Assembly (NCBI GenBank): GCA_965249765.1
Contig: CBDFMR010000005.1
Span: 1,506,782-1,570,781, forward strand
DNA: 64,000 nucleotides
Origin: Saprospiraceae bacterium
GTDB taxonomy: Bacteria; Bacteroidota; Bacteroidia; Chitinophagales; Saprospiraceae
Direction: 5' to 3'
Positions within the stretch are counted from its first letter, which is position 1; each line of letters begins with the position of its first letter. Positions 1,641-29,892 of this stretch are shown in pieces. Position numbers and translations under genes: made by a program. The notes below the pieces were generated by a model. The model searched no databases, was not told where the DNA came from, and saw nothing but the letters and a program-made list of their open reading frames with translations.

Positions 1641-1642
1641 TG

Positions 1643-2143: not shown

Positions 2144-2199
2144 AACTTTCAGTTTAGTAATTATTAGCCATGTTTTATACACCGTGTTAGCAATAGTTT

Positions 2200-2562
2200 T
2201 TAACATCCTGGAAAAGAATCACAGTCCAAATCATCACAATCAGTAAATCCATCTCCATCATTGTCTATTCCATCATTACAGATTTCAGCTGAACAACTTT
2301 GGTCAGAATCACAGTCCAAATCATCACAATCAGTAAATCCATCTCCATCATTGTCTATTCCATCATTACAGATTTCAGCTGAACAACTTTGGTCAGAATC
2401 ACAGTCCAAATCATCGCAATCAGTAAATCCATCTCCATCATTGTCTATTCCATCATTACAGATTTCAGCCTGAGGGTTGTCATCATCACTATTACATGAT
2501 TGATAAATAATTACACTAAAACTAAATAGTGTTAGTAGTAAAATTGGTCTTAAATTTTTCAT
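2200..2562 (-). CDS. small secreted lipoprotein with three perfect 30-aa Asp/Cys-rich (DxDxDG calcium-binding-like) repeats
   Basis: Signal peptide plus lipobox ([23 protein letters not shown]). This is followed by 3x [30 protein letters not shown]. Confidence 0.6.
2216..2470. repeat. 3 x 90-bp perfect tandem DNA repeat (coding)
   Basis: Units begin at 2216, 2306 and 2396. The first two are identical; the third differs by 1 nt and is truncated. Confidence 0.85.
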
Positions 2563-2802
2563 TATTTCTAAGTTTTAATTATTGCTAACGTTTTGGATAT
2601 GTAGAGTAGGTGAGGTACGAACCTATTCTGTCATATCTTTTGTTACCTACTGGCACTTTATCTTTCGTGTTTACAAATGTACTCATTTACTCATTTGTTT
2701 TGGGGTTGGCAGACATACTCTTTGGCAAGTTTGGATTTGTGCGGTGGCTTGTAGCGACTTGCCAATGTGTATGGCTATGCGTTGGCTTTTAGACATATCT
2801 TT

Positions 2803-3837: not shown

Positions 3838-3838
3838 A

Positions 3839-6979: not shown

Positions 6980-7031
6980 ACTATCATTCTTGCGTTTTGC
7001 AAATTTACTTTCTTTTTTAGCGTTGGCTAAA

Positions 7032-7096
7032 AATCAGGCTCTTTTGGTTTTTCGTATTGTGCTTTGCGGGTCAGCAAAAACCAAATGTGCCTGATT
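7032..7096. terminator. imperfect 21-bp-stem hairpin between the Type I operon and the Type IIG gene
   Basis: aatcaggctcttttggttttt-(23 nt loop)-aaaaaccaaatgtgcctgatt; 19 of 21 positions are complementary. It lies 270 bp downstream of the DUF45 gene and upstream of the Type IIG start. Confidence 0.3.
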
Positions 7097-7364
7097 GCGG
7101 GAGGGCTATACTTTTCAAGCTTGTAGGTAACGTCCCGTGTATGGTGTCGTAGCATCCCGAAGGGTGCTATGCACTATACACATTGTTGTGCTTTCGTGCT
7201 TTATTTTCTTTTCGTTTTTATTCTCATTTTCTATGTCCACTTGTGCGGTGGGGCATTTTTTTAAATTTCTCTTTTCTTGGGCAGGGACTTGAAAGCTCTT
7301 TTGCAGGTTTTGGTCGAGCGTTGGCATTGTGCGACCTGCAAATGTGCTTGAAAGTGTGCGTTGG

Positions 7365-8081
7365 CTAATACTCCCAATCTGCATGACTAACTGGTAATCT
7401 GTTTAACTCATCTCTCAGTTTCTTCCAATTTGGTAAATAATAGTCCATATGTGCTTTGAATTTGTCATTGTGATTTCGTTCTAATAAATGAACCATTTCA
7501 TGTACAAGAATGAATTCTAAACAGTGAATGGGCTTTTTTGCCAATTCTAAATTCAACCAAACTCTTTTCTTTTCTATGTTGCAAGAACCCCATTTAGTTT
7601 TCATCTGTTTAATGCCACAGAAATTGATTCTTACACCTATTTTCTTTTCCCAATGAGAAATCATTTCAGGTAAAATGCTTTTTAATTCAGCTCTATACCA
7701 TTCATTGAGTAGGTTCTTTTTATATTCAATCGAGACATCAGATTTTACTATTAAATCAAGATATGTTTTGCCTTTTAAATCTACTTTTCCTGCTCCTGTA
7801 GTTTCTTTTATTCTGAGCAAATACCTTCTTCCTTGGAAATAATGGCTTTCTCGTTCTTTGTATTCTTTTGGCGAAGTACGCTCTTGGGCTGCAAATTTGC
7901 GTTGGTGTCTTTTTATCCACCCTAGTTTTGAAATTGCAAAAAGGCGAATAGCGTCACCATGAACATTTAGTGGAACAGCAAGACGAACACGACCTGTTGG
8001 CGGATAAACAGCCAAGTGCATGTTTTTAATATCCTTTCGGATAACATCAACAGTCATATTGCTAATTGTAATTTGCTGCAT
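7365..8081 (-). CDS. DUF45/YgjP-like (M48/SprT-type) zinc metallopeptidase, common accessory gene of Type I R-M operons
   Basis: 238 aa with WGSCN and HExxH (ILVHEMVHLLERNHNDKF). It overlaps the hsdR stop by 1 nt. Confidence 0.8.
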   Translation of the reverse strand: MQQITISNMTVDVIRKDIKNMHLAVYPPTGRVRLAVPLNVHGDAIRLFAISKLGWIKRHQRKFAAQERTSPKEYKERESHYFQGRRYLLRIKETTGAGKVDLKGKTYLDLIVKSDVSIEYKKNLLNEWYRAELKSILPEMISHWEKKIGVRINFCGIKQMKTKWGSCNIEKKRVWLNLELAKKPIHCLEFILVHEMVHLLERNHNDKFKAHMDYYLPNWKKLRDELNRLPVSHADWEY

Positions 8082-11000
8082 TAGTATTCACGTTGATTTT
8101 TAACGATATCAAATATTCTGTCTATCTCGTCTGGTGTTACAATCCCTTTTTCAGCGAGTATCTCTTCAATTTTTAGCCTTACTTCTTTTGTTTTGAATTT
8201 GTTATCGCGCCAAGCATCTTTTTTAGTATATCGTACTGCTTTATCAAGAGAATTTGCTAGAAATTCATCTTTACCAGTATTGTCATAAAGTGCTCTTTTT
8301 GCCTCATTATCAATTGAGCTTGGATAGGTTGTTGAAGAACTTGGTTGTTTAATTTTTCTTGTCAATGCAACAATTTCATCCAAGTACTTTTCGTATTCAT
8401 CCGCTTTTTCTTTCCTCAGTTTTATAAGTTCGTCAAGCAGAATGCTCATCTTCTCATAATACATTGGGTTTGTTGGACTTTCTTCAATTATGACTTTTCG
8501 CAAGTTGTTTTCAATCGTCTCTGACATTGAATCCTTATTCTTTCTGAGTTTTTCAGGAAGGTCATTTATTGCGTCTTTTCCTTTTTCAACAATAAGTTCC
8601 ACCAAGCTTAAATCGTCAAAACTTGAAAGCATTCGGCTTTCTTCTGCTCCAATGTATGAGTCAATTAAATGACGCATTGCTGGTTCATACTGTTTTAGGT
8701 CAATGTAATCACCACTCGCTAACTGAATTTCTTTCCGCAGATTCTCGTAATATTTAACTTCATTTTTGATGCCTGCAATCTCGTTGTTCATGTATCCTGC
8801 TTCTGGCATTTCATCAGCAATATTGGCATAAGCACGAATAACAGAAATCACACATTTGTACAATGCAACCCTTCTGGGTTCGGTATCTTTTAATTCATCT
8901 GAATTTTCGGAATTCCCAACAAAGTAGTGCTGAAACTGAACTTGACCTTTCGGTGGTTCAACAGGTTCAATTAAAGCTCGCATTGTTTCTAAAGCGTCAT
9001 CTAAACGTTGTTTTCCCTTTTTCAAGCGATCTTCTAATAAACCTGCAACATCTTCTTTTTCAAAATTGTCAAAAGCACCTGAGGTGTAATCCTTAATGGA
9101 CTTGTCAAGGCTTTTAAATAGGTCTTTGTAGTCTATGACATAACCATAGTCTTTGTCATCCCCATCTAAGCGATTCACTCGGCAAATGGCTTGAAATAAA
9201 CCATGGTCTTTCATGTTTTTGTCTATGTACAAGTAAGTTGCTGATGGAGCGTCAAATCCCGTTAAAAGTTTATCTACTACAATAAGGAGCTTCATTTGAG
9301 CAGGTTCATCAACAAACTTCTTCTTGGCTTCAATTTCAAAGGCTTCAACATCTTTTCCATTGAGCATCTTTTGATAAATCTCGTATTTAATGAGTTTTTC
9401 TGTTAATCCTTCACCTGTCTCTTCACCTTTAATATCTGCATGAGAAGGAGCAAAGGAGGTGACGATAGCACAGTTCTTTAGTCCTGCATTTTGAAACAGT
9501 TCGTAATATCGGCAAGCGTTGTACACACTTTCGGAAACCAACATGGCATTTCCTCTACCATTTTGCAAACGCTCTTTAGTTTCCATGTCGAGCATTACAT
9601 CTGCAACAATTTTCTCTAATCGAGATTTGGAACTGAAGACCTTTTTTAAAGTACCCCATTTTTGTTTCAGTTCTGTTTTGGCGAAGTCTGTTAGCCCTTT
9701 TGTTTTAGCATCAAACCATTGGTCTATTTTATCAAAACTTGATATTTTCTGCTCAATGTCTCGTGCTTCATAACGCAAGTCAAGAACAACTTTATCAGCT
9801 ACTGCTTCATCAAATTTGTAAGTGTGAATGTATTTACCGAATACCTCTAGACTCGTTTGCTTGTCTTTTTTGAGAAGAGGAGTTCCTGTAAAACCAATAA
9901 ATAATGCATCAGGTAAAATGGTTGTCATGCTCTCATGAAGTTTACCACTTTGGGTTCGGTGACACTCGTCTACGAAAACAAAAACATCACCTTTGGCTTT
10001 AAAGTCAGTAGGCAAGCTTGCCTTTAAATCTTTGATATAATCATCAACATCCTTCTCATCAATTTCTTCTTTTCCGCCAAATTTGTGAACCAAAGAACAA
10101 AGTAACCAAGGTGAATTAGAATTGAGTTTATCGATTAAATCCTTACCGCTTGTTGTACGATAAATGTGTTCATCTACGCCTTTGTAAACTTTTTCAATTT
10201 GTTCATCCAGTTCCGTTCTATCTGTTATTATTAGAACTCGGGCATTTTCAACATTTTCTCTAATCCATTTGGTAAGCCAAACCATGGTTAAGGACTTCCC
10301 ACTTCCTTGCGTATGCCAAATGATTCCACCTTCTCTTTTTCGAACGTGTTCTTGGGCTGCTTTAATACCGAAATATTGGTTTGGTCTTGTTAGTTTTTTG
10401 ATTCCTCTATCAAATACTATGTAGTCATGGAGCAACTCAATGAAACGCTCTTTATTCAGCATTTCTATAATGTTCTTGTCCAAACGGTGCTCAACCGTTG
10501 CAGCTAAATGTCGAATAGGTTTTGTGAGTTGAAGTAAATACTTGTCTTTAGCGTTTACTTCTTCATTTACCTCTTTCCAACTTAGATAATATCTTTCTTT
10601 GGTTTCTATTGCTCCATAAGCCAATCCCTCATTATCACTTCCAGCCATTACAAATTGTAAGGTTGAAAAGAAAGGCTTTATAAAAAGGTGTTTTTGATTG
10701 TCTAAATTCTGACGAATTCCTTCTGAAATTGAAACGGTACTCCGTTTTAATTCAATAACGCCCAATGCAATTCCGTTTACATACAGAACAATATCTGGAC
10801 GCTTTTTATGAATTCCTTTTATTGTGACTTCTTCTGCAATTGCGAAATCATTTTTAAGCGGATGCTTCCAATCAATTAGTTGAATGGTTTTTTTATTCTT
10901 CCCAATTTCAGGTTGAACATTTACGCCATAACGTAGAAGCGTATAAAACTCTTTGTTTACATCATATAAACTTTTGCTTTGGTCGTTTGCAATCTTATCC

Positions 11001-11572
11001 AGTTCATACAAGGTTTTTGTAATGAGGTTGGAGTCGTATTTCTTTTGTAGAAATTCCGTTAATATCTCAGTTTCAATATTGCTGTTGTCTTCACGTTCTT
11101 CCCAATTTCCTAAGTAACGGTAGTTCAATTTGTTTTGAAATAATTCAACAACTCGGTCTTGGGTAACTCGTTCTAATTGACCAACCTCAGAACTTGCAGG
11201 GTTTTCTAGTTTATTCACAATATTTCTTTTTATGCCTGAGGCTAATGGTTTGTCAGGTGAGAGGAGTATTAACCCTGGATCAGGAAAAATGTCATCACTT
11301 ACAACGCCTGTGTAATCTTCTACTTCAAGTTCATTTTGATTGACAAAGCTTCCTTTTAAGAAACGAGATATTTTGTCATTAAAGACGGTTCTCAAATCAA
11401 GTTCGCCTGATAAGAATTTACCTGAATTTTCAGCATCTACTTTATGCCCAATGTATTCCTCGGTTTCCTCATCTAATAAGACAAAGAGGTAGTTAAACTG
11501 CTTCTCGTCTTCGCAGATAAGTAGCGTAGGAATCTCGTAATAGTACAGCTGTTTAACCACTTTTAAATTCAT
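8081..11572 (-). CDS. hsdR: Type I restriction endonuclease R subunit (HsdR)
   Basis: SF2 helicase motifs: Walker A WHTQGSGKSLTM, DEAH-box FVFVDECHRTQ, motif III TGTP. Start chosen at MNLKVV so that the ATG overlaps the stop of the upstream small ORF; the longest ORF would extend to 11629. Confidence 0.85.
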   Translation of the reverse strand: MNLKVVKQLYYYEIPTLLICEDEKQFNYLFVLLDEETEEYIGHKVDAENSGKFLSGELDLRTVFNDKISRFLKGSFVNQNELEVEDYTGVVSDDIFPDPGLILLSPDKPLASGIKRNIVNKLENPASSEVGQLERVTQDRVVELFQNKLNYRYLGNWEEREDNSNIETEILTEFLQKKYDSNLITKTLYELDKIANDQSKSLYDVNKEFYTLLRYGVNVQPEIGKNKKTIQLIDWKHPLKNDFAIAEEVTIKGIHKKRPDIVLYVNGIALGVIELKRSTVSISEGIRQNLDNQKHLFIKPFFSTLQFVMAGSDNEGLAYGAIETKERYYLSWKEVNEEVNAKDKYLLQLTKPIRHLAATVEHRLDKNIIEMLNKERFIELLHDYIVFDRGIKKLTRPNQYFGIKAAQEHVRKREGGIIWHTQGSGKSLTMVWLTKWIRENVENARVLIITDRTELDEQIEKVYKGVDEHIYRTTSGKDLIDKLNSNSPWLLCSLVHKFGGKEEIDEKDVDDYIKDLKASLPTDFKAKGDVFVFVDECHRTQSGKLHESMTTILPDALFIGFTGTPLLKKDKQTSLEVFGKYIHTYKFDEAVADKVVLDLRYEARDIEQKISSFDKIDQWFDAKTKGLTDFAKTELKQKWGTLKKVFSSKSRLEKIVADVMLDMETKERLQNGRGNAMLVSESVYNACRYYELFQNAGLKNCAIVTSFAPSHADIKGEETGEGLTEKLIKYEIYQKMLNGKDVEAFEIEAKKKFVDEPAQMKLLIVVDKLLTGFDAPSATYLYIDKNMKDHGLFQAICRVNRLDGDDKDYGYVIDYKDLFKSLDKSIKDYTSGAFDNFEKEDVAGLLEDRLKKGKQRLDDALETMRALIEPVEPPKGQVQFQHYFVGNSENSDELKDTEPRRVALYKCVISVIRAYANIADEMPEAGYMNNEIAGIKNEVKYYENLRKEIQLASGDYIDLKQYEPAMRHLIDSYIGAEESRMLSSFDDLSLVELIVEKGKDAINDLPEKLRKNKDSMSETIENNLRKVIIEESPTNPMYYEKMSILLDELIKLRKEKADEYEKYLDEIVALTRKIKQPSSSTTYPSSIDNEAKRALYDNTGKDEFLANSLDKAVRYTKKDAWRDNKFKTKEVRLKIEEILAEKGIVTPDEIDRIFDIVKNQREY

Positions 11573-11976
11573 ACTTCTACCTTTTGAATGGTTACAGAGC
11601 TTATGTCGAATGAATGAGAACGCCACCATGAATAATGACCATCTGAAAAAGTTTGCTTAATCATTCCGTCACCGTCATACAACACTATTTTTGCAAGCAA
11701 TTTTTCTTTCTTTTTGCCCGCAGGTGTTTTGAAAAATGCATTTAAAAGTCCTTCGGCACTGTCAAATGTGGATACCGCTCTGGCACAACATTCATCAGGA
11801 TATTCTTTAGTCGGGAATTTACTTCTGTGAGACATCAAACATTCTGAGGAAGCAGGATTGCATTTTACTATGCGATATAATTCCATAGAACCATCAGGAA
11901 TATTTGCATCTTCATGCGGGCAATTACAATCCGCAATGTCCAAATCTTCAAAATATCTGATTTCGCTTTTATCCAT
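11569..11976 (-). CDS. Cys-rich hypothetical protein (135 aa) inserted between hsdS and hsdR
   Basis: Starts 2 nt after the hsdS stop; its stop overlaps the proposed hsdR start (ATGA). Cys clusters CNCPHE, KCNPASSEC, ECCARAV. Confidence 0.45.
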   Translation of the reverse strand: MDKSEIRYFEDLDIADCNCPHEDANIPDGSMELYRIVKCNPASSECLMSHRSKFPTKEYPDECCARAVSTFDSAEGLLNAFFKTPAGKKKEKLLAKIVLYDGDGMIKQTFSDGHYSWWRSHSFDISSVTIQKVEV

Positions 11977-11977
11977 T

Positions 11978-13201
11978 TTAAACCAATCTCTTTTTACCGT
12001 TTAATAAATCTTGCATCATACCCCTTTTGAACATTTTTTGCTTTGTGAGTTTAGATTCTAATTGTTCTATTTCATTATCCATATCAAAAAGAATGGTTGC
12101 TATTTTTTTTTGCTCGTCAATTGTTTTGGGAGTTAGAAATTTAAAATTGACAAAGTCTTTTTGATATAGGTGATTTATAGTTGAACCAGCACTTAATTGG
12201 GTTAAAAATGTCAGAAAAACATCAGATAATAGAAGGTAATAGAAGAATTCTGGGTGAAATGATTTGTTAATAGGACGAATAACAAAAACCCCACTGTTAA
12301 GTGTTGCGGGCTTAGGCACATCTTTTATTAGTGCTACTTTACCAATGGTTCCATCTTTTGTGACAAGAACATCATGTGGTTTGACTTGAATAAATTTGTC
12401 TTGGCGATATCTGTCATATTCTACATAATGACATTTATCCCAATCGATAAAGCCATTCTTAAACTCTGTGCCAGTAATAAGAAAATATTCTCCAGTTTTT
12501 TTGTACTCAGCAGTTGTTAAACCTTGCCAGCCAATCCGTGCTTTAAGAGTAGCTGTTTTACCTAATTCGTTTTCGACCCAATCTTTTTTGGGTTTCATTA
12601 ATTTTTGGAGGATACCTTGTTTTAAATTTCGTTTCTTAGCAAGAAGTTTTTCAAGACAAGCAATCAATTGATCTGTATCACTGAGAGCAATAGAGATTTT
12701 TGTTTGCTCTGATTTCTTAAGAGGTAAAGCGACAGGACAATCTAGAATTTCTTGTCGCTTTATATTGGTTTGACCAGTACCACTATCAAATGCTAAATAG
12801 TATTTGTTTCTATTTAATTTATAGAACAGATACATATTGTCTGTATCATCATTGGCAGTTATTCCACCAATTCGTTGATTCAACGTATATCTGTCATCCT
12901 TATCAATGAGAAAGCATTTTGCTAATGCTTTTCCTTTTGGAATGTCACTCATTACAATTGTGATATCTCCTTTCGTTAATGGAAAAATGTTCTTCTTAGA
13001 AAATTTCTTTACTCCTCCTTCAGTTGAGATAAATTTTGAGTTCACTACGATGTATTCTCCATGCTCATCAATAAACTGTTCATGAGCTTTCCCATTTTCA
13101 AAATGGGCCACTTCATGCAAAGGTTTTACCACCCAATCGTTTGGAATGATTCCTGCGTCCGTTTGCTGAAAACCTTCTGCTATTTTCAATTCTTCTACCA
13201 T
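11978..13201 (-). CDS. hsdS: Type I R-M specificity subunit (HsdS), two target-recognition domains
   Basis: 407 aa. Bipartite TRD architecture with conserved spacer helices (LIACLEKLLAKKRNLKQGILQKLM ... NEIEQLESKLTKQKMFKRGMMQDLL). Overlaps hsdM by 7 nt. Confidence 0.85.
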   Translation of the reverse strand: MVEELKIAEGFQQTDAGIIPNDWVVKPLHEVAHFENGKAHEQFIDEHGEYIVVNSKFISTEGGVKKFSKKNIFPLTKGDITIVMSDIPKGKALAKCFLIDKDDRYTLNQRIGGITANDDTDNMYLFYKLNRNKYYLAFDSGTGQTNIKRQEILDCPVALPLKKSEQTKISIALSDTDQLIACLEKLLAKKRNLKQGILQKLMKPKKDWVENELGKTATLKARIGWQGLTTAEYKKTGEYFLITGTEFKNGFIDWDKCHYVEYDRYRQDKFIQVKPHDVLVTKDGTIGKVALIKDVPKPATLNSGVFVIRPINKSFHPEFFYYLLLSDVFLTFLTQLSAGSTINHLYQKDFVNFKFLTPKTIDEQKKIATILFDMDNEIEQLESKLTKQKMFKRGMMQDLLNGKKRLV

Positions 13202-15639
13202 GTGTAGTTCATTTGTTTTAGGTGGTCTTCAACTTTAGCAGTTAAGTCAGCTATGTCATTGGTAAGTTTAGGCATTGGTGTTTCGTATCTTTCACCAAGC
13301 TCTTTTATCCGTTCGGTTAATCGGTGACTTATGGCATCCATTTCTGATTTGACAAGTAGTTCCATGGTCACCATCCATTTCTTGTCAACCGTAAGTGTTT
13401 TGATTTCATCAATGCTCAAAACAGGATATTTCTTTATGACTTTACCTTCTAGTTCGGAAAGAGCTTTTTTTATACTTGCTTTTAGCTTGGTTTCTTTCGC
13501 CATTAGCTTTTTGTATTTGTCTAGCATATCCCATTCTTCGGCATTGTCTGCATCTTTCTTTCCAAGTTCCTTGATGCGTGCATCCAAACTCTTTTTAGAA
13601 ATCTTTTGCTTGTCGTCCATGGGTTCTGTCAACAAACCATCTTCACCACCATTTTCATCTCTCAATTCATCCATTTCGGAAACGGTTGTGTCTAAATCAG
13701 ATTGAAGTTTTTCAATGGCACCTTGCTCAGTTGCAAAATATTCTTGAATGATTATAGATGGCGGAATTAACCTGCCTTCTAGTCCGTCTATTCCATCAAC
13801 TGCTTTTTCAATTTCTTTACCTGCTTTCTTTGCTTTTTTCATGATTCTTGAAACCACATTTCCAGCTTTCCAGCCATCAGCTGATAACTCATACAAATCA
13901 TCTTGCATGATTTCAGACCAATAGTCCATCATGTGTTGATAAACTGCATATTTATCTACCAAGTCCTTTCCATGGTAGGTTTTAAGAAGGTCTTCTGATA
14001 TTTTATGAATGACTTCTTTAGGGTGACAGGCTTCTTCTAAACCTTTGAGGTAAGTTGTGTTTTTGACACACCATTCGTTGAATACCTTTTCCATTTTTTC
14101 TGAGTAGATTACGAATTCAGGGTGTTCAAAAATGGTAGACTTAATGCTGTCTTTTTCTACGTCTAAATCCCAATAGTTAGCACGAGAGTTTGGCTTGTAC
14201 ATATCGGTTTTTAGTGTTGGGTAAACTTTCCAGTAACTATTTAAAGCTTCAATATCTCTGTTAGGAATACCACCTCTTAAATGTGCATCAATGTCTTGAA
14301 TGTCCTCTTCTTCCTGACTGTCAATATATCTTGGAATATTTAAGTTGTAGTCATTCTTCGGGCCTGAGATTTCAGACAAAGGCACCATTCGGCTGTATTT
14401 CAGAATTTCAAGTTGTTTGTTAAAGACATCTACTATTTGGTGAAGGTCTTGCGAACGCAATCTGTTTTTGTTTCCGTCCTTCATAAATCCTTTACCTGCA
14501 TCAATCATAAAAATGCCTTTACGCTGAGCGGCATCTTCTTTGTCTATCACCAAAATACAAGCGGCTATACCAGTTCCATAAAACAAGTTGGCAGGTAGTC
14601 CGATTATTCCTTTGATGTATCCTCTTTTAACAATGCTTTTCCGAATCTCTGCTTCCGCATTTCCTCTGAACAAAACGCCTAGAGGTAGAATGATTGCTCC
14701 TTTTCCTTTGCTTTTCAGTGATTTGATTAAATGGAGCAGGAATGCATAATCTCCGTTTTTCTTTGGTGGAATGTCGTAATTCTCAAAACGCTTATATAGG
14801 TCATTAACCGCATCAAGTCCGTTTGTCCAAGTCTTGTTGCTAAAAGGGGGATTGGCTACTGCATAATCAAAAGTTTTTAAATCTCCAGTTTTATCATCTT
14901 TAAAAAGTGGATCAGCAATTGTATTTCCTTGGACAATTTCAGATGCAGGATTTCCATGCAGCCACATATTCATAACAGCCAAGGCTCGTGTAGCATTGTC
15001 ATTTTCTTGTCCGTAAATCGAAATGCCGTGAGGTGATTCATCTGCTGCTTTTAGCAGCAACGAACCTGAACCGCAAGTTGGATCGTAAAGACTTTCAGAT
15101 TGGCTTTTTGATTTTTGAATTCCAATCACTTTTGCCATTATTCGAGAAACTTCAGCAGGTGTATAGAATTGTCCTTTACTCTTTCCGCTTTCCGTTGCGA
15201 AGTGTCGCATCAAATACTCATAGGCGTCACCAAGGATGTCGTCATTCTCTGCGCGGTTTCCGCTAAAGTCAAGAGCTTCATTTTCGAAAATCTCGATTAG
15301 ATTACTTAATCTGTCAACTTTGTCTTTTCCCTTTCCAAGTTTCTCGCTATCGTCAAAGTCAGCAACGGTTATAATTCCATTCAGGTCATTGGCTTTTGCC
15401 AATGCTCCAATAATTACATTGATTTTTTCACCTATGTCTGACTTTCCTTTAAGTTTTATCATGTCCTTAAAGCTTCCACCTTCAGGTATGTCAACCAATG
15501 CACCGCCTTTGTCAGAGACATATTTCATAAAGAGTAAAACCAATACATAATCTTTGTACTGGCTTGCATCCATGCTTCCCCTTAATTCATCACAGCTTTT
15601 CCAAAGTGAGCTGTATAATTCTGATTTCTTTATTGCCAT
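13195..15639 (-). CDS. hsdM: Type I R-M methyltransferase subunit (HsdM) with an unusually long (about 300 aa) charged coiled-coil C-terminal extension
   Basis: 814 aa. N-terminal HsdM_N pattern (ELYSSLWKSCDELRG), motif I DPTCGSGSLL, motif IV NPPF (AVANPPFSNKTW). The last ~300 aa are K/E-rich with no methylase motifs. Confidence 0.85.
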   Translation of the reverse strand: MAIKKSELYSSLWKSCDELRGSMDASQYKDYVLVLLFMKYVSDKGGALVDIPEGGSFKDMIKLKGKSDIGEKINVIIGALAKANDLNGIITVADFDDSEKLGKGKDKVDRLSNLIEIFENEALDFSGNRAENDDILGDAYEYLMRHFATESGKSKGQFYTPAEVSRIMAKVIGIQKSKSQSESLYDPTCGSGSLLLKAADESPHGISIYGQENDNATRALAVMNMWLHGNPASEIVQGNTIADPLFKDDKTGDLKTFDYAVANPPFSNKTWTNGLDAVNDLYKRFENYDIPPKKNGDYAFLLHLIKSLKSKGKGAIILPLGVLFRGNAEAEIRKSIVKRGYIKGIIGLPANLFYGTGIAACILVIDKEDAAQRKGIFMIDAGKGFMKDGNKNRLRSQDLHQIVDVFNKQLEILKYSRMVPLSEISGPKNDYNLNIPRYIDSQEEEDIQDIDAHLRGGIPNRDIEALNSYWKVYPTLKTDMYKPNSRANYWDLDVEKDSIKSTIFEHPEFVIYSEKMEKVFNEWCVKNTTYLKGLEEACHPKEVIHKISEDLLKTYHGKDLVDKYAVYQHMMDYWSEIMQDDLYELSADGWKAGNVVSRIMKKAKKAGKEIEKAVDGIDGLEGRLIPPSIIIQEYFATEQGAIEKLQSDLDTTVSEMDELRDENGGEDGLLTEPMDDKQKISKKSLDARIKELGKKDADNAEEWDMLDKYKKLMAKETKLKASIKKALSELEGKVIKKYPVLSIDEIKTLTVDKKWMVTMELLVKSEMDAISHRLTERIKELGERYETPMPKLTNDIADLTAKVEDHLKQMNYTW

Positions 15640-15848
15640 TTAATTTCCTTTATCTTCTTTGTTAGAAATAATCAAGTCTTTGATATCGATATCTAATATC
15701 TCTGCAATTTCCATTAGCACTTCCAATCTTGGTTGTTGTCTGTTTTGCACATAGGAGTTCACCATATTGTAGCTCTTTCCAAGTTTCTCAGCCAGCCAAG
15801 TCTGTTTAATCCCTTTGTCTGCAAGTACTTCCTTAATACGATTCATTG
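15640..15848 (-). CDS. small XRE-family HTH transcriptional regulator (candidate controller of the Type I operon)
   Basis: Start taken at the internal Met: MNRIKEVLADKGIKQTWLAEKLGKSYNMVNSYVQNRQQPRLEVLMEIAEILDIDIKDLI. Its stop abuts the hsdM start codon. The upstream part of ORF 15640..16098 is low-complexity (PTFGTFAKPHKPTHNP) and probably not coding. Confidence 0.55.
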
Positions 15849-16203
15849 CTGTCAAATTATTCGGTTCTAAATTACAATTATATCTCAAATAATAAGATAT
15901 AAACCGATAGTTATTATGGGTAGAGCGTGGGAGATTTGGCTCTTTTGTAAAGCTTGGGTTGTGGGTTGGCTTGTGCGGCTTTGCAAATGTGCCAAATGTG
16001 GGTTGGCAGAGAAATTTAAAAAAATGCGAAGCGGGGGCTTTCAGATTATTTGGTCTGTAAGTTTGATTTAGTCTTATATCAATTCGGTTAGCATTCAAAG
16101 TTCAGTTTTCTCTTTTTTGCATGAAGCACAACGGTTGATGATATCTCGTCGTCTCTCGACGAAGGAGAGATATGCGATGATATCTATTGTTAGTCGCTTT
16201 TTT

Positions 16204-17253
16204 TCATATTCTGTACACAAATTCCAGAAAATCACCTAATTCAGAATTGTGAATTGATTTGTTAGTTCTCCAATGTAAATGTCTAACGATTATTCCTAAT
16301 GCATCCGCTATATCAGTTTTATGTTTACTTAAATCAATATCGAATTCTTCTTTAATAGTTTGATTTATTGATTGATTTTTATTCCCTATTTTGTTTACAA
16401 ATTCGCTTGTATTGCAATCTATTATTTTTAAAGTATTTAGGACTCCATAAAATAATTTGATTGGTATTGATGTTTCGAAATCGTGTTTAAATTGAAATGT
16501 GTGGTCTTCTGAGATTAGTCCATTTTTTATATGGTTTTGAAAGAAGTTTATATCGTTTCCGTCCTTATCTCCTTGTATAAATATTTCATATCCAACTTCA
16601 CGATTTTTCTCAATTAGCATTTTTATTTTCTTTTCGCTTTTATTGTTCTTTCCATCATAAGATTGCACGATAAACTGTTTAGCTGAAAAATCACCATTAG
16701 ATATTAATCTGTTTATGAAAATTTCTTCAGTTTTTCCTTCTACCATCAATATACCTTTAGTAGCACCAAATTCATTTAATTCTCTGAAATTTTTACCTAA
16801 TTCGTCTAAATAGTGTCGTATATAAAGAACGTGACCATAGTTTTGAGGTGAATGCTCGCCATACCAATCAAGCATATCTTTATCGAGAAACATACCTGTT
16901 TCAAGTTCGGATTGATATATGAATTTTTGAAAATAGTAAAGTCCGTTAAAGTATTTTTGGAGTTGGTCTTTCTTATATGTAGTTAAGAGATGAAAAGTTT
17001 GGTCGATAAAATTATTTATGACTTTAACTACGACTCCACATTGTATGTCTTTGAATTTATGTTTGACATATTCATGCTGAATGGTAAACTTACAATAATC
17101 AGATCTTCCACATTTATGGCACTCATAGTAAGGCACCCATCTATCTACTAATTCATTTGATAAACCCCTTTCTTCGAATTCTCCCATCAATTCCAATGGA
17201 TAGAGTCCATATGGATTTATTGTCGATATTTCTTTTTCAGTAAAGTCTATCAT
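16204..17253 (-). CDS. zinc-ribbon + TOPRIM-domain protein (OLD-family/AriB(DUF4435)-like nuclease core lacking an ATPase)
   Basis: 349 aa. N-terminal CxxC-x7-C (YECHKCGRSDYC). TOPRIM signature glutamate in ILMVEGKTEEIF and a DxD motif in IFIQGDKDGNDINFF about 57 aa downstream. Confidence 0.55.
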   Translation of the reverse strand: MIDFTEKEISTINPYGLYPLELMGEFEERGLSNELVDRWVPYYECHKCGRSDYCKFTIQHEYVKHKFKDIQCGVVVKVINNFIDQTFHLLTTYKKDQLQKYFNGLYYFQKFIYQSELETGMFLDKDMLDWYGEHSPQNYGHVLYIRHYLDELGKNFRELNEFGATKGILMVEGKTEEIFINRLISNGDFSAKQFIVQSYDGKNNKSEKKIKMLIEKNREVGYEIFIQGDKDGNDINFFQNHIKNGLISEDHTFQFKHDFETSIPIKLFYGVLNTLKIIDCNTSEFVNKIGNKNQSINQTIKEEFDIDLSKHKTDIADALGIIVRHLHWRTNKSIHNSELGDFLEFVYRI

Positions 17254-17274
17254 TTTCTATTTTTAAATTGCGAC

Positions 17275-17922
17275 TAACGTCTCATGTACATCCGTCTGTA
17301 CACTGTTTATAATTCCAAGTTACTAATAAAGTCGGGACTAATTTAGTGAGCATTATTCAGAAGTTAATGGCGCTTGCTGGTGTATGACGTGATGTACGGT
17401 GTTATCCAACGCCTACCATCAAAGAGGATGAGAATGAAAAGAGGGCGATTGCTCGGGAGACATATCATTCCCCAAATGCTAAGACCCGAATGCTTACCTC
17501 CACAGGAGGGAAAGTAAGGATATCCTGAATTTTCACAAGCCCTCTCAATTTTACCAATGACCTATGAGAGGATGAATAGTTTACGCGAAGAAAAGAGGGC
17601 GATTGCCAGATGCTTCCACAATTTCATGCGCAATTTTCGAAGCCCTTTCGCCTTACTTCTGACAGATCGAAATCACGTAATTTCAAATCTGTCATGAATG
17701 ATCCTTGAAATAGTTAGAACTGATTATTCTCTTACCCCACGAGAATCTGAGGAATGCTAATTCTTAAATTTTACCGTCTCAGGCTATTCTAAAAAGTCAG
17801 TCAGAAGAAAGGGGAGTGGAAGGAGGAAGTCTGTTTTGCCGAGCCCTCAACCAGTTTCGTTTTCAATAACAGGAGCAAAATTCTAAACGGATACCGAACT
17901 CTTTCTTGGGTGGTGGATAACG
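17275..17922. repeat. 648-bp ORF-free repeat, copy 1 (candidate structured ncRNA or non-autonomous mobile element)
   Basis: Identical by eye to 19296-19943 at constant offset 2021 in direct orientation. No ORF of 60 aa or more on either strand. Internal stem-loops, e.g. cttac-CCTCC-aca-GGAGG-gaaa-gtaag at 17493-17518; gaaaagagggcgattgc occurs twice. Confidence 0.7.
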
Positions 17923-18000
17923 GTCAATGATACCCGTTCGTACTGACGGTAGGAAGTATGACGTGGTATCTAATGTTATCATCCTTTTTAAATAGATATT

Positions 18001-18237
18001 ATGATTAAATTTTACAGTAAAGAGAATTGTCCATCTTGTGAGTATTTTGGCAGTATTGGATTGAAAAGGTTTGATTCAAGTAGGTTTCAGATTGTTAAAT
18101 TTGAAGATGACACAGAATTGGTTGCTGTAATGAAGAGATTTGGTGTAACTTCTGTTCCGTTTATAACTTTGAACGATAATAGTGTAATCAAGGGTGATGA
18201 TGTTAAGGATTTTGTATTTAGGCTTAGAAGCATTTAA
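18001..18237 (+). CDS. glutaredoxin/NrdH-like small thioredoxin-fold protein
   Basis: 78 aa with a CPSC active-site motif near the N-terminus (MIKFYSKENCPSCEYF) and a glutaredoxin-like C-terminal (TSVPFITLNDNSVIKGDDVKDF). Confidence 0.6.
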   Translation: MIKFYSKENCPSCEYFGSIGLKRFDSSRFQIVKFEDDTELVAVMKRFGVTSVPFITLNDNSVIKGDDVKDFVFRLRSI

Positions 18238-18511
18238 ACCATTCAAAGTTTTTGCATACAAAAGAAACAGCATCTAATTCGTTTTCAAAGTTGGCTTCTA
18301 TGTCCGAATTTGAGAACGTTGTTGAGTTTTCAGTTGCGTGAACACGGAACTTGGTTTTAGCGGGATTCATTGATATATGGACATTGTATTCTCGTCCGTT
18401 TGAGGATGATGGTACATTGTTATGACAGGACATATCTCTACAAGTGTGACAACCAGACCCTTTAGAGAAGTCTAAACCAAGTTCTTTAAATGTTTTGTAT
18501 TGTTTTTGCAT
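18224..18511 (-). CDS. hypothetical Cys/His-containing small protein (95 aa)
   Basis: Complete ORF between the two 648-bp repeats. It overlaps the glutaredoxin gene's 3' end by 14 nt. No motif recognised. Confidence 0.3.
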   Translation of the reverse strand: MQKQYKTFKELGLDFSKGSGCHTCRDMSCHNNVPSSSNGREYNVHISMNPAKTKFRVHATENSTTFSNSDIEANFENELDAVSFVCKNFEWFKCF

Positions 18512-18616
18512 ATGTGGTTTATTTAGTTTGTTTTAATTGATGATAACGTTTAGTATATGGCTAGTAGGGCAGTAGAAAGCGATAAACTTTCAATCTTACA
18601 CTTAGCCAAATATAAA

Positions 18617-18682
18617 TATTTTGTTTTTAATTTATTCATCTTTAAAAGCCAAATTTTATATTTGGCGGTGTTTGTAAATAGC
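18617..18682. repeat. about 70-bp intergenic element (copy 2) with palindrome gccaaat-N7-atttggc
   Basis: tattttgtttttaatttattcatctttaaaagccaaattttatatttggcggtgtttgtaaata. This is homologous to 2075-2143. Confidence 0.6.
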
Positions 18683-18710
18683 ACTGAACTTTCGTAAACC
18701 TCCGAACGCC

Positions 18711-19286
18711 CTATTTGCTATATACAGTGTTACCTGCTGGCTTTTCATTCAACTTATTAAACGACTGCACAAGCTTCTCTAATTGACTTTTCGTTTTATC
18801 GTCCAAAATCTCTCCACTACTATTTATTTTGCCTTTAATTCCTTGTATTAGAAGCGTAGTTTCGTCTGTGAAATTTGTTTGGATGGTTTTCATTATTAGC
18901 TTCAATTCTTCATGTCCTTTTTCACCACTTGCAGAAGCTGTAATCAGTCCAATTGGTTTATCAGAAAATACTACAGTCGAAACACACCATTCAATTGCAT
19001 TTTTAAGTCCGCTTGGGATACTAAAAACATATTCAGGTGTACAGATTATAATTCCGTCCGCATTTTCAATTTGATTACGAAATTCAATTATTTTTTGAGG
19101 GACGTTATTATCTGTCAATTCCGTTTTAAAATGCGGTAATTCGGTCAAGTCATCAATTATATTTAAATCAAATTTGGATTTTCCGAGCTCGGCAATTCTA
19201 TTTAAAATAGAAAGATTGGAAGAGTTTTTACTTGCACTTCCATTAATTCCTAAAATATTTAATTTCTTATTCATTCTGTTTTTCAC
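18711..19286 (-). CDS. NAD(P)H-dependent FMN reductase-family oxidoreductase
   Basis: 191 aa; flavodoxin-like pattern LNILGINGSASKNSSN...ADGIIICTPEYVFSIPSGLKNAIEW. An alternative start at MNKKLN is possible. Confidence 0.65.
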   Translation of the reverse strand: MKNRMNKKLNILGINGSASKNSSNLSILNRIAELGKSKFDLNIIDDLTELPHFKTELTDNNVPQKIIEFRNQIENADGIIICTPEYVFSIPSGLKNAIEWCVSTVVFSDKPIGLITASASGEKGHEELKLIMKTIQTNFTDETTLLIQGIKGKINSSGEILDDKTKSQLEKLVQSFNKLNEKPAGNTVYSK

Positions 19287-19295
19287 GCTTGCAGG

Positions 19296-19943
19296 TAACG
19301 TCTCATGTACATCCGTCTGTACACTGTTTATAATTCCAAGTTACTAATAAAGTCGGGACTAATTTAGTGAGCATTATTCAGAAGTTAATGGCGCTTGCTG
19401 GTGTATGACGTGATGTACGGTGTTATCCAACGCCTACCATCAAAGAGGATGAGAATGAAAAGAGGGCGATTGCTCGGGAGACATATCATTCCCCAAATGC
19501 TAAGACCCGAATGCTTACCTCCACAGGAGGGAAAGTAAGGATATCCTGAATTTTCACAAGCCCTCTCAATTTTACCAATGACCTATGAGAGGATGAATAG
19601 TTTACGCGAAGAAAAGAGGGCGATTGCCAGATGCTTCCACAATTTCATGCGCAATTTTCGAAGCCCTTTCGCCTTACTTCTGACAGATCGAAATCACGTA
19701 ATTTCAAATCTGTCATGAATGATCCTTGAAATAGTTAGAACTGATTATTCTCTTACCCCACGAGAATCTGAGGAATGCTAATTCTTAAATTTTACCGTCT
19801 CAGGCTATTCTAAAAAGTCAGTCAGAAGAAAGGGGAGTGGAAGGAGGAAGTCTGTTTTGCCGAGCCCTCAACCAGTTTCGTTTTCAATAACAGGAGCAAA
19901 ATTCTAAACGGATACCGAACTCTTTCTTGGGTGGTGGATAACG
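19296..19943. repeat. 648-bp ORF-free repeat, copy 2
   Basis: Same sequence as 17275-17922. It begins 9 nt from the FMN reductase start codon, as copy 1 begins 21 nt from the TOPRIM gene start. Both copies are bounded by TAACG. Confidence 0.7.
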
Positions 19944-20431
19944 TAAGTGTATATTACGTTGCCGACGAATGGAGGCAATGAAAATATACACCATGTTGAA
20001 TTTAGTTCTTTTCTTTTTCTCTTTATAATATCTCTTTTAGGATATTAATGGAAAGATATGAAAAACGTAGTTAAAAGTTAGAAAGATTCTATTTTTTTAG
20101 AAGTCTGTTCCAATTGAATATACACCTGTGTATGTACTGCTGGAACGCTAAAAAAAGGAACCTCCGGCAAAAAAGATAGGCCATTTCTAAACTATTTTAA
20201 ATCTCAATTGTTTACAAGCTGTTGTTTGCCAAAACAACTCAGGTTGTCCAGCTGGCTTTACTTAAAGTTGCTTTAATTCAGCCAACCGACGACCTCAAAT
20301 TATTGTTTAATTAGCTTGTAAACATTTCTATTTAAATCCCTTCTGCCTGATCTCTTTTTGTCTTTCTCTTTTAATTAAAATCAACATTCGAATATCAACA
20401 ACCTCCTATAATGGAGTTGTTGCTATTTCTA

Positions 20432-21544
20432 TTATGTATGCGTGTCTAATTTAGCATTTTCTATAATTTTATCCAACGGACTCATGACTGTTTTGTTATT
20501 AATCGAGATGATGTGTGTATAAATTTCAGTAGTCTTTGAAGAGCTATGACCTAGCAGGGATTGTATATATCTTAAGTTGACACCTTGCTGTAACAGATGT
20601 GTAGCAAAACTATGTCTCAAAGTGTGCACCGTGGCCCAGGCATTTACCCTGGCTGCTGATACTGCTCGCCTAAATATGACATTTACACTGGTTGCACTGT
20701 ACTTTTCTCCATCCTGCCCTTCAAATAACCAATATGCAGGCTTGTACGCCTTATAATAAGTACGTAATAGTGTGAGTAGAGTATGTGATAAGATTGTTTT
20801 TCGATCTTTCTTGCCTTTGGACGCCTTTATGAATATATATCCATCGTCAGAGTGAATATCTTCAATCCTTAGATTCAATAATTCGCTCTTCCGCAATCCT
20901 GCGCTATATATGGTGTACAATATGGCTTTGTGTTTTATATTTTTGGGGATATTGATTATTTTTAGAATGTCCTCTGCACTTAGTACATTGGGTAGTTCTT
21001 TAGATTTTTTAGGACGCTGAAGATCATAATAGGTCCGGGGCAGACCCAGCACATGTTCATAGAAAAATTTAATCGCGTTGATAATACTATTTTGTCGGCT
21101 GTCTGATATTGCATACTTCGACTTTAACCTATATAAATACTGTTCTATTTGATCTTTTGTGATGGAAGATAAATCATGATTATCGAAATGGACTAAATAG
21201 GCAATGAAGGCCTCTCTATAGGTCCTAAGTGTATTATTACTGTAGCCTTTAAGAATTATTTTCTGCTGTAGTGCATTCAGGGCTTCGATGGCTTTGGGAG
21301 TGAGTTCCTTAAATGGTAGAGCTGTAGGCTTTTCCATCTTTTTTATCTCATACTGCCCTCCAAAAACATCTTTGATTCTGGCCAATCCTTCAGATGTATT
21401 TACTATGCTCCATAGTTTTTGATGATAGTGAAAAAAGGTGCCATTCAGACTCTTTATCTGCTCACGCCAAGCTTTGGCAGCATAAGGGACGTACAGTTTT
21501 ATTCGCTTAGCATTGCGATGTGGTTCATATATTATAGCTTTCAT
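20432..21544 (-). CDS. tyrosine site-specific recombinase / phage-type integrase
   Basis: 370 aa. C-terminal catalytic region HTLRHSFATHLLQQGVNLRYIQSLLGHSSSKTTEIYTH (R..HxxR..Y). N-terminal SAM-like domain. Confidence 0.85.
   Translation of the reverse strand: MKAIIYEPHRNAKRIKLYVPYAAKAWREQIKSLNGTFFHYHQKLWSIVNTSEGLARIKDVFGGQYEIKKMEKPTALPFKELTPKAIEALNALQQKIILKGYSNNTLRTYREAFIAYLVHFDNHDLSSITKDQIEQYLYRLKSKYAISDSRQNSIINAIKFFYEHVLGLPRTYYDLQRPKKSKELPNVLSAEDILKIINIPKNIKHKAILYTIYSAGLRKSELLNLRIEDIHSDDGYIFIKASKGKKDRKTILSHTLLTLLRTYYKAYKPAYWLFEGQDGEKYSATSVNVIFRRAVSAARVNAWATVHTLRHSFATHLLQQGVNLRYIQSLLGHSSSKTTEIYTHIISINNKTVMSPLDKIIENAKLDTHT

Positions 21545-29819: not shown

Positions 29820-29892
<73 letters not shown>

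What the first reader, a model, noticed from the sequence alone, without database searches (positions are those of the whole stretch)
17275..19943. Two identical 648-bp ORF-free direct repeats, each placed immediately 5' of a minus-strand gene start, with internal stem-loops: candidate large structured ncRNA or non-autonomous mobile element
The repeats 17275-17922 and 19296-19943 are identical by eye in direct orientation at a constant 2021-bp offset. Neither contains an ORF of 60 aa or more on any frame. Each ends 21 and 9 nt from the start codons of the TOPRIM gene and the FMN-reductase gene respectively, so each would supply the promoter/5' leader of those genes. Both are bounded by the pentamer TAACG. 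Inside are convincing RNA-like helices: a 10-bp stem with a GAAA bulge at 17493-17518 (cttac-CCTCC-aca-GGAGG-gaaa-gtaag), the 17-mer gaaaagagggcgattgc twice in direct orientation, and complementary segments ggaaagtaagg / gccttacttc. There are no terminal inverted repeats and no transposase, RT or intron-type ORF. It lacks the GUGYG start and domain V of a group II intron. Perfect identity over 648 bp in an AT-rich accessory island implies recent duplication or mobilisation. Its size matches large ornate bacterial RNAs (OLE, GOLLD, ROOL class) and it sits next to defense genes.
Basis: seen in the sequence. Interest (0 to 1): 0.8.

Follow-up and report, generated by a model that had tools for sequence, protein, structure and literature searches.

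The report
Duplicated gene-less integron-type cassette
The two identical 648-bp repeats are two copies of one 643-bp gene-less mobile cassette in a roughly 19-kb integron-like array of defence genes in a Bacteroidota genome, not a large structured RNA; the more unusual feature is that the array's recombinase lacks the domain that defines integron integrases.

Summary
In detail: window 17275-17922 and 19296-19943 are 100% identical and contain no ORF longer than 47 aa. The interpretation needs replacing. On the minus strand the region from 20385 down to 1221 resolves into 10 consecutive integron-type cassettes. Each starts after a G|TT crossover. Each has a first 9 nt that is 8-9/9 complementary to an R'' box (xxxxxxAAC) at the 5' edge of its own 3' attC-like imperfect palindrome. 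The repeat is cassette 2 (19941-19299) and cassette 5 (17920-17278), 643 bp each. The "TAACG" ends are the conserved crossover core CG|TTA. The left-end stem-loops are the 138-nt attC. The position just upstream of the TOPRIM and FMN-reductase genes is simply how cassettes abut. Two sister contigs show different first cassettes joined at the identical attI point, and the same TOPRIM cassette between other neighbours. The cargo (about 505 nt) has no Rfam hit, no homologue, no excess folding energy, no consensus promoter and no protein signal, so its function is inferred only; a cis-acting expression module is the most likely. The adjacent recombinase lacks the IntI-specific insertion. Related Flavobacteriia recombinases are followed by the same kind of array.

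The parts
17278..17920 (-). Gene-less cassette, copy A (array position 5): first base T17920 (TTATCCACC...), last base G17278
   Evidence: Chain-walk. It is 100% identical to copy B. Longest ORF is 47 aa.
19299..19941 (-). Gene-less cassette, copy B (array position 2)
17272..17409 (-). attC-like site of copy A (138 nt). The R'' box TTGGATAAC lies at 17409-17401. L''/L' are GTACATCACGTCATACAC / GTGTACAGACGGATGTAC. The crossover is G17278|T17277.
   Evidence: R'' is 8/9 complementary to the cassette start GTTATCCAC. The bottom-strand fold pairs the AAC and GTT ends.
19293..19430 (-). attC-like site of copy B; crossover G19299|T19298
17436..17452 (+). Exact 17-mer GAAAAGAGGGCGATTGC, first copy in cassette A (also at 19457-19473 in cassette B)
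   Evidence: It is read in different frames in the two small ORFs that cover it, so it is a DNA- or RNA-level repeat. Function unknown.
17590..17606 (+). Exact 17-mer, second copy in cassette A (also at 19611-19627 in cassette B)
1221..20384 (-). Cassette array, 10 complete cassettes: c1 20384-19942 (gene-less); c2 = copy B; c3 19298-18547 (FMN reductase); c4 18546-17921 (95-aa ORF); c5 = copy A; c6 17277-16132 (OLD-like TOPRIM); c7 16131-7131 (HTH plus type I R-M); c8 7130-2589 (type IIG R-M); c9 2588-2002; c10 2001-1221 (HigB/HTH). It continues past 1220.
   Evidence: (control).
20385..20431 (-). attI-like region: hairpin CAACAACTCC-ATTAT-AGGAGGTTGTTG, then ATATTCGAATG|TT, with the crossover at G20385|T20384
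   Evidence: The window, L001 and L082 are identical up to this G|TT and then carry three different first cassettes.
20432..21544 (-). Tyrosine recombinase (370 aa), co-oriented with the array. It is Xer/IntI-like but lacks the IntI-specific insertion and has an extra N-terminal region of about 90 aa.

Best explanation
The repeat is a 643-bp gene-less cassette of an integron-type array that runs on the minus strand, downstream of a co-oriented tyrosine recombinase gene and its attI site.

Shown:
- Each copy starts right after a G|TT crossover and ends at the G of the next one.
- Its last 138 nt form an attC-like imperfect palindrome.
- The R'' box of that attC (TTGGATAAC) is complementary to the cassette's own first bases (GTTATCCAC). 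This is what a circular cassette intermediate would require.
- The 5 extra identical flanking bases (CG...TTA, read as TAACG on the plus strand) are the conserved core shared by nearly all attC sites in the array.

Inferred (copying): the recombinase excised the cassette as a circle from one chromatid while the sister kept its copy. The circle was re-inserted at attI. The gene-less cassette c1 was then captured in front of it. That leaves copies at positions 2 and 5 that are still 100% identical.

Inferred (function, about 0.35): the roughly 505-nt non-coding cargo acts in cis on expression of the cassette behind it, as an internal promoter or 5' leader. Gene-less cassettes of Vibrio and Treponema integrons were shown experimentally to do this. 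The exact 17-mer present twice would be a protein- or RNA-binding site in that module.
For: Repeat and boundaries.

attC and R''/start complementarity of the element and of every neighbour.

Control: walking from all 1952 GTT sites in the window, every chain of 4 or more cassettes funnels into this one array. Elsewhere the maximum is 3.

Independent evidence of mobility:
- The neighbouring 1146-bp TOPRIM cassette is 99.7% identical in contig L001, with identical boundaries but different cassettes on both sides.
- The attI junction GAATG|TT is identical in the window, L001 and L082, and is followed by three unrelated first cassettes.

Same architecture downstream of related recombinases in Polaribacter, Flavobacterium, Algibacter and a Flavobacteriaceae isolate. 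Their attCs are mostly 131-163 nt, so the element's 138-nt attC is typical.

Array content is typical of integron biobanks: type I and IIG R-M, OLD-like TOPRIM, HigBA (10.1101/2024.07.02.601686).

[quoted passage not shown] Duplicated cassettes occur in the V. cholerae array.
Against: The recombinase is not a canonical IntI.
- It scores 199 bits against the TIGR02249 cutoff of 265.
- It has no residues where IntI1 and VchIntIA carry the IntI-specific insertion.
Single-strand attC recombination by this enzyme is therefore assumed, not shown.

For the function step:
- There is no Bacteroidota-type promoter (TAnnTTTG with a -33 TTTG) in either orientation of the element.
- The sigma-70-like hits are antisense and no more frequent than in shuffles.
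- In-silico promoter calls were shown to be unreliable for such cassettes, so this is weak evidence against.

No second genome carries the cassette, so conservation and selection cannot be judged.

The attC model of IntegronFinder could not be run.

An assembly artefact cannot be formally excluded from the sequence alone.
Confidence: 0.82

Rival explanations
1. The cassette is real, but its cargo is a stand-alone product: a trans-acting or structured ncRNA, or a very small peptide such as the 34-aa hydrophobic sense ORF at 17468-17364. It would not be a cis expression module.
For: About 505 nt of non-coding cargo is kept with an intact attC. An exact 17-mer occurs twice. Local hairpins are present. 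Only 3 of 38 cassettes in 8 arrays lack an ORF, and all three are in this window: c1 and the two copies of this element. From my own knowledge, sRNA-encoding integron cassettes are known, for example sRNA-Xcc1 of Xanthomonas.
Against: No Rfam family matches at E<=10. Folding is no more stable than shuffles. There are no homologues, so no covariation. No Pfam signal appears in any frame. The two small plus-strand ORFs read the 17-mer in different frames.
Confidence: 0.2
2. The cassette is functionless cargo, either a decayed gene or random DNA captured with an attC. It persists and was copied only because its attC is still recombination-proficient.
For: It has no homologue in any collection searched, no promoter consensus, no structure signal and no coding signal. 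The 100% identity of the copies means there has been no time for selection to be visible.
Against: The plus-strand frame 0 has only 6 stops, but no frame gives a protein-family hit, so there is no positive sign of a decayed gene. The exact 17-mer duplication is not expected in random DNA. In Vibrio, most tested gene-less cassettes proved functional as promoters.
Confidence: 0.3
3. It is a non-autonomous transposon that targets TAACG (MITE, IS200/IS605-type PATE, or an ORF-less group II / IIC-attC intron).
For: It has identical copies, a pentamer at both ends, subterminal hairpins and no ORF. Group IIC-attC introns are known to home into attC sites (PMC3001079, listed).
Against: There are no TIRs. 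The pentamer is shared by essentially all cassette junctions in the array, including junctions of gene-carrying cassettes. The ends coincide with the G|TT crossover, and the start is complementary to the element's own R''. No group II intron model matches on either strand at E<=10. No further copies lie outside the array in 64 kb.
Confidence: 0.03
4. It is a plain segmental duplication by homologous or illegitimate recombination, or an assembly artefact.
For: There are two perfect copies 2 kb apart and no copy elsewhere.
Against: Both ends of both copies fall on cassette crossover points to the base. The intervening DNA is two other complete cassettes. The flanks outside CG...TTA are unrelated.
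Confidence: 0.05

Closest known systems
Gene-less (ORF-less) integron cassettes with promoter activity (Vibrio sedentary chromosomal integrons, 10.1101/2023.11.21.568050; Treponema oral-metagenome cassettes, PMC6557892)
   Same: It is a cassette of a few hundred bp with a normal attC and no ORF. It sits directly in front of gene-carrying cassettes in a long array. Such cassettes are a small minority of cassettes.
   Different: No promoter or transcript has been shown here, and no Bacteroidota promoter consensus was found. The host is Bacteroidota, and the array's recombinase is not a canonical IntI.
Duplicated cassettes in sedentary chromosomal integrons (V. cholerae superintegron; 'second copies of duplicated cassettes', 10.1101/2024.07.02.601686)
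   Same: Identical copies of one cassette sit at different positions of the same array, bounded by crossover points. The array is rich in defence and toxin-antitoxin cassettes.
   Different: The array seen here is much smaller (at least 11 cassettes in the window). It also includes very large multi-gene cassettes, such as a 9.0-kb type I R-M cassette.
Integrons with intI co-oriented with the array and attI just downstream of intI (the 'inverted' Treponema-type from my own knowledge; archaeal integrons, PMC9668308)
   Same: The recombinase gene is on the same strand as the cassettes. The attI crossover lies about 50 nt after its stop codon.
   Different: Those IntIs keep the IntI-specific additional domain. 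This recombinase and its Flavobacteriia relatives lack it and instead carry an extra N-terminal region of about 90 aa.
Large ornate bacterial RNAs (OLE, GOLLD, ROOL)
   Same: Only the size (about 650 nt), the lack of an ORF and a location among mobile or defence genes.
   Different: There is no covariance-model match, no homologues and no excess structure. The strongest helices belong to a DNA recombination site.

Membership tests
Integron-type gene cassette | Bounded on both sides by the G|TT crossover of a core site (GTT...) | tested here: met
   Both copies run from TT after ...CG| to ...GAGACG|TT. The same junction form is seen at all 16 distinct attC junctions examined.
Integron-type gene cassette | A 3' attC: inverse core ...AAC (R'') and core GTT... 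(R') flanking an imperfect palindrome (L''/L') with unpaired spacers. Typical length is 57-141 nt. | tested here: met
   The element's attC is 138 nt. R'' is TTGGATAAC. The L'' and L' arms pair with bulges in bottom-strand DNA folds. The identity and position of canonical extrahelical bases were not verified.
Integron-type gene cassette | The first bases of the cassette are complementary to its own R'', so the circular form recreates a full attC | tested here: met
   8/9 for the element and 8-9/9 for all 10 cassettes. The control over all 1952 GTT sites is.
Integron-type gene cassette | Detected by the IntegronFinder attC covariance model | not testable with these tools
   That model is not in Rfam and is not available here.
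Integron-type gene cassette | Evidence of movement as a unit | tested here: met
   The element lies at two array positions with different neighbours. The adjacent TOPRIM cassette is found with identical ends in another array context, L001. No circular intermediate was observed.
Canonical integron (IntI platform) | Integrase with the IntI-specific additional domain around patch III (Messier & Roy 2001, cited in PMC9668308) | tested here: not met
   About 43 residues are missing relative to VchIntIA 2a3v. There are no residues opposite the 32-aa IntI1 insertion. The IntI1 sequence was taken from L069.
Canonical integron (IntI platform) | Integrase scores above the curated integron-integrase cutoff | tested here: not met
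   TIGR02249 scores 199 bits against a cutoff of 265, matched in two stretches. NF011946 scores 140.8 against 435.
Canonical integron (IntI platform) | attI next to the integrase gene, used as the insertion point for different cassettes | tested here: met
   The junction GAATG|TT is identical in three contigs, each with a different first cassette.
Large structured ncRNA (OLE/GOLLD/ROOL or any Rfam family) | Match to a covariance model, or conserved homologues with covarying helices | tested here: not met
   There are no Rfam hits in the element at gathering threshold. At E<=10 there are only sub-threshold chance hits on the 17100-18100 stretch: two touch the element's left edge and RF02172 lies inside it, all far below their gathering scores. 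No homologues were found in genome, metagenome, viral, plasmid or phage collections.
Large structured ncRNA (OLE/GOLLD/ROOL or any Rfam family) | Folding more stable than composition-matched shuffles | tested here: not met
   z = +0.69 (sense) and -1.47 (antisense) for the whole element. The best of 28 local windows is -2.67.
MITE / IS-derived non-autonomous transposon | Terminal inverted repeats and a target-site duplication | tested here: not met
   There are no TIRs. The flanking pentamer is the conserved junction core of all cassettes, not a duplication.
Group II intron (including IIC-attC) | Domain V/VI and a 5' GUGYG | tested here: not met
   No Intron_gpII or group-II-D1D4 match on either strand at E<=10. 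The ends read UUAUCC... and ...GAGACG.

The most novel reading that the evidence does not exclude
The repeat is a cassette of a previously unrecognised class of integron that is widespread in Flavobacteriia and other Bacteroidota. The integrase of this class is a Xer-like tyrosine recombinase. It lacks the 'essential' IntI-specific domain, carries a new N-terminal domain of about 90 aa, and is co-oriented with the array. Even so, it appears to shuffle classical R''/R' attC cassettes, including 9-kb multi-gene defence cassettes. The gene-less 643-bp cassette, with its twice-repeated 17-mer, would be a mobile regulatory or RNA module of that system.
Probability: 0.3. Interest if true: 0.7.

Novelty: new variant of a known kind. 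Interest (0 to 1): 0.45.

Why it matters
For the finding itself, a candidate giant ncRNA turns out to be an ordinary kind of object: a gene-less integron-type cassette that was recently copied. Annotators should not chase it as an OLE/GOLLD-like RNA.

The context is more valuable. The IntI-specific domain is treated as defining and necessary for integron recombination. IntegronFinder-style surveys, which require it, report complete integrons as very rare in Bacteroidetes (PMC9024848). Here there is strain-level evidence of cassette turnover next to a recombinase without that domain:
- three different first cassettes at one attI;
- one cassette shared between arrays;
- one cassette duplicated.

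The same architecture is found in several flavobacterial genera. If this is confirmed, integron-like gene capture, here stocking restriction-modification, OLD-like and toxin-antitoxin cassettes, would be much more common in Bacteroidota than current tools report. It would also show that attC recombination does not strictly need the IntI domain.

Tried and rejected
1. Rfam at gathering threshold on the whole window and at E<=10 on 17100-18100: only chance hits (snoRNA, MicC, lncRNA fragments).

2. Homologue hunts, all negative:
- The double 17-mer pattern in genome contigs and metagenome contigs gave zero hits.
- The single 17-mer in viral contigs and a degenerate 21-mer in metagenomes gave only 17-28-nt matches in unrelated sequence, i.e. 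chance.
- blastn and nhmmer against 80 loci around related recombinases found nothing.
- blastn 'distant' against plasmids and phages found no match.
- Exact look-up of the 46- and 47-aa ORFs as called genes found nothing on record.

3. Decayed-gene idea: six-frame translation and Pfam at E<=1 gave nothing except a 0.24 Holin_9 hit.

4. Promoter idea: the Bacteroidota -7/-33 consensus is absent in both orientations. Sigma-70-like hits are at or below shuffle expectation.

5. Internal tandem-module idea: the two 154-nt segments share little beyond the 17-mer.

6. IS200/IS605-PATE, MITE and group II intron readings were considered and dropped (see rival explanations).

7. The first version of the chain-walker mis-chose distant 8/9 matches and the lowest-energy GTT. 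It was fixed by taking the nearest hit first and using an energy-density rule.

8. Literature search for a described Xer-like integron platform in Bacteroidota/Flavobacteriia: none found in the held library. This does not prove that none exists.
Full report
**1.
Window 17275-17922 and 19296-19943 are identical over all 648 bases, at an offset of 2021. Identity ends abruptly on both sides. No frame has an ORF longer than 47 aa. The 17-mer GAAAAGAGGGCGATTGC occurs twice per copy, 154 nt apart. The element is 41.7% G+C against 38.7% for the window. There are no other copies or fragments in the 64 kb.

**2. A sister contig gives the key.**
An exact-protein look-up of the downstream TOPRIM gene returned the metagenome contig L001.
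- The gene and its flanks are 99.7% identical to the window, but only over L001 3204-4362 = window 17288-16130.
- Upstream, the homology stops at ...ACGTTAGTCGC, exactly where the repeat ends.
- Downstream, it stops after GCGACTAAC-(57 nt)-AACCG|TT.
- GCGACTAAC is the reverse complement of the segment's first bases, GTTAGTCGC.

This is the signature of an integron gene cassette. The 3' attC site has an inverse core (R'', ...AAC) that pairs with the core (R', G|TT...) carried at the start of the same cassette.

**3. The whole region is a cassette array.**
I wrote a chain-walker with these steps:
- Start at a G|TT.
- Find the nearest downstream 9-mer ending in AAC that is at least 8/9 complementary to the cassette start.
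- Require that this 9-mer opens a foldable imperfect palindrome ending at another GTT.
- Repeat from that GTT.

Starting at G20385|T20384, 47 nt after the recombinase stop codon, the walker resolves the minus strand into 10 consecutive cassettes down to 1221:

| Cassette | Coordinates (minus strand) | Size | Content |
|---|---|---|---|
| c1 | 20384-19942 | 443 bp | gene-less |
| c2 | 19941-19299 | 643 bp | repeat copy B |
| c3 | 19298-18547 | 752 bp | FMN reductase |
| c4 | 18546-17921 | 626 bp | 95-aa ORF |
| c5 | 17920-17278 | 643 bp | repeat copy A |
| c6 | 17277-16132 | 1146 bp | OLD-like TOPRIM |
| c7 | 16131-7131 | 9001 bp | HTH plus complete type I R-M |
| c8 | 7130-2589 | 4542 bp | type IIG R-M plus a 344-aa ORF |
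| c9 | 2588-2002 | 587 bp | 120-aa ORF |
| c10 | 2001-1221 | 781 bp | HigB plus HTH antitoxin |

As a control, I started the walker from every one of the 1952 GTT sites on both strands. All chains of 4 or more steps funnel into this one array. On the opposite strand the array is read backwards, as expected for palindromic sites. Elsewhere the longest chain is 3.

**4. What the repeat is.**
On the minus strand the repeat reads CG|TTATCCACC ... GAGACG|TTA. The cassette proper is 643 bp.
- Its R'' box, TTGGATAAC (17409-17401), is 8/9 complementary to its start, GTTATCCAC.
- The 138 nt from R'' to the crossover form an imperfect palindrome. The arms are GTACATCACGTCATACAC and GTGTACAGACGGATGTAC, and short unpaired spacers lie next to AAC and GTT.
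Of 16 distinct attC sites examined, 15 end in CG and 10 are followed by TTA.
- The 76% similarity between 17382-17406 and 17956-17980 (family D3) is two neighbouring attC 5' halves resembling each other.
- The position 21 nt and 9 nt upstream of the next start codons is how cassettes abut. ORFs begin a few bases after the crossover.

**5. Evidence that the array is active.**
- The window, L001 and the sister contig L082 carry the same recombinase 3' end and the same attI. L082's recombinase is in the 90%-identity cluster, and its DNA is 99.2% identical to the window over the recombinase gene and attI. All three are identical up to GATATTCGAATG|TT and then carry three unrelated first cassettes.
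- Each of those first cassettes has a 9/9 R'' match further on.
- The TOPRIM cassette occupies different positions with different neighbours in the window and in L001.
- The 643-bp cassette itself sits at positions 2 and 5 with four different neighbours.

The most economical history is as follows. The cassette was excised as a circle while one chromatid kept the original. It was re-inserted at attI, and c1 was captured afterwards. This is inference. It draws on the replicative model of integron recombination, which I know from the literature (Loot et al. 2012). The 100% identity of the copies says the event is recent.

**6. What the cargo does is not shown.**
The roughly 505 nt ahead of the attC gave no positive signal in any test:
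- No Rfam match.
- No protein-family signal in any frame.
- No homologue in any collection I could query.
- Folding energies are indistinguishable from shuffles. Whole-element z is +0.69 in sense and -1.47 in antisense. The best of 28 local windows is -2.67, and the first 200 nt are less structured than random.
- No Bacteroidota promoter consensus in either orientation.

The exact 17-mer duplication is real. It is read in different frames by the two small ORFs that cover it, so it acts, if at all, at the DNA or RNA level.

Gene-less cassettes are rare here. Only 3 of 38 cassettes in eight arrays lack an ORF, and all three are in this window: c1 and the two copies of this element.

By analogy with Vibrio and Treponema gene-less cassettes, I rank the possibilities as follows:

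| Reading of the cargo | Probability |
|---|---|
| cis expression module | about 0.35 |
| functionless cargo | about 0.3 |
| stand-alone sRNA or peptide | about 0.2 |

In those organisms most tested gene-less cassettes drive downstream cassettes, and in-silico prediction failed.

**7. The platform is not a canonical integron.**
- The 370-aa recombinase (20432-21544, minus strand) hits the integron-integrase model TIGR02249 best, but below its cutoff (199 against 265 bits) and in two pieces.
- Against VchIntIA (2a3v) it aligns on both sides of the IntI-specific region, with 25 residues opposite 68.
- Against IntI1 (translated from L069) it and three flavobacterial relatives have no residues opposite the 32-aa insertion. 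They carry about 90 extra N-terminal residues.
- That insertion is described as the defining IntI feature and as necessary for activity (PMC9668308, PMC8138268).
- The family is large. All 120 best hits are 55-64% identical at full length, and the named ones come from Aequorivita, Algoriphagus, Algibacter, Saprospiraceae and Cytophagales.
- Arrays with perfect 9/9 R''/start matches follow the gene in Polaribacter (L002), a Flavobacteriaceae isolate (L007), Flavobacterium (L013, L023) and Algibacter (L021).
- IntegronFinder 2.0 reported only one complete integron in Bacteroidetes proper.
- I found no paper describing this platform in the held library. That is not proof of novelty.

**8. Verdict.**
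It is wrong on the large structured RNA reading and on the TAACG target. The repeat is a duplicated gene-less cassette, an ordinary object in integron biology. It sits in an integron-like array whose recombinase fails the defining IntI test, so I rate the whole as a new variant of a known kind. The repeat itself deserves low interest. The platform raises the overall score to moderate.

Noticed in passing
window 20432-21544 (-), with relatives in L002, L007, L013, L021, L023: The array's tyrosine recombinase lacks the IntI-specific insertion and has an extra N-terminal region of about 90 aa. Even so, related genes in several flavobacterial genera are each followed by co-oriented arrays of classical R''/R' cassettes. 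This may be an unrecognised integron class.
   Followed up: partly
window 7029-7104 (-); L082 12583-12658 and 16428-16502; window 2696-2790 (-); L082 14471-14571: Hairpin-forming non-coding motifs of 80-100 nt are shared at 78-81% identity between otherwise unrelated cassettes. One example is ...AATCAGGCACATTTGGTTTTT...AAAAACCAAAAGAGCCTGATT..., often flanked by GCCAACGC. They have no Rfam match at the gathering threshold and could be a cassette-borne regulatory or terminator motif.
   Followed up: no
window 7131-16131 (-): A single 9.0-kb cassette (R'' match 9/9) carries an HTH gene, a complete type I R-M system (hsdM, hsdS, a 135-aa ORF, hsdR), a YgjP-like metallopeptidase and an 89-aa ORF. 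This is far larger than typical integron cassettes.
   Followed up: partly
window 19942-20384 (-): The first cassette, c1 (443 bp), is also gene-less (longest ORF 33 aa). It is unrelated in sequence to the 643-bp cassette.
   Followed up: partly
window 20386-20431 (-): A 10-bp perfect hairpin (CAACAACTCC-ATTAT-AGGAGGTTGTTG) lies immediately after the recombinase stop codon and 11 nt before the attI crossover. It could be a terminator or part of attI.
   Followed up: no
window 21702-22055 (+); L082 8411-8764: A 117-aa Cys-rich (zinc-ribbon-like) ORF lies divergent from the recombinase gene and has no family hit. It is conserved at 99.8% in L082, but the DNA beyond it differs, so ORF, recombinase and attI may travel together. 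In L082 an IS (DDE_3 transposase) is inserted between the two genes.
   Followed up: no
L001 1-945: In contig L001 only the C-terminal part of the recombinase gene, about 135 codons, remains and is fused to unrelated upstream sequence. The attI and a cassette array (EcoRI-type methylase plus GmrSD, TOPRIM, EcoRV) are retained. This is a CALIN-like state.
   Followed up: partly
window 18541-18737 and 1996-2194 (-): Two attC sites are unusually long (197 and 199 nt). They share an internal hairpin, ...CCGCCAAATxTxAAATTTGGCTTT...AAATTAAAAACAAA.... This suggests either an attC subfamily or an insertion within attC.
   Followed up: no
window 29820-29892 (+): A tRNA gene (Rfam, 66.7 bits) lies about 8 kb beyond the recombinase side of the array. 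Whether it marks an island boundary was not examined.
   Followed up: no
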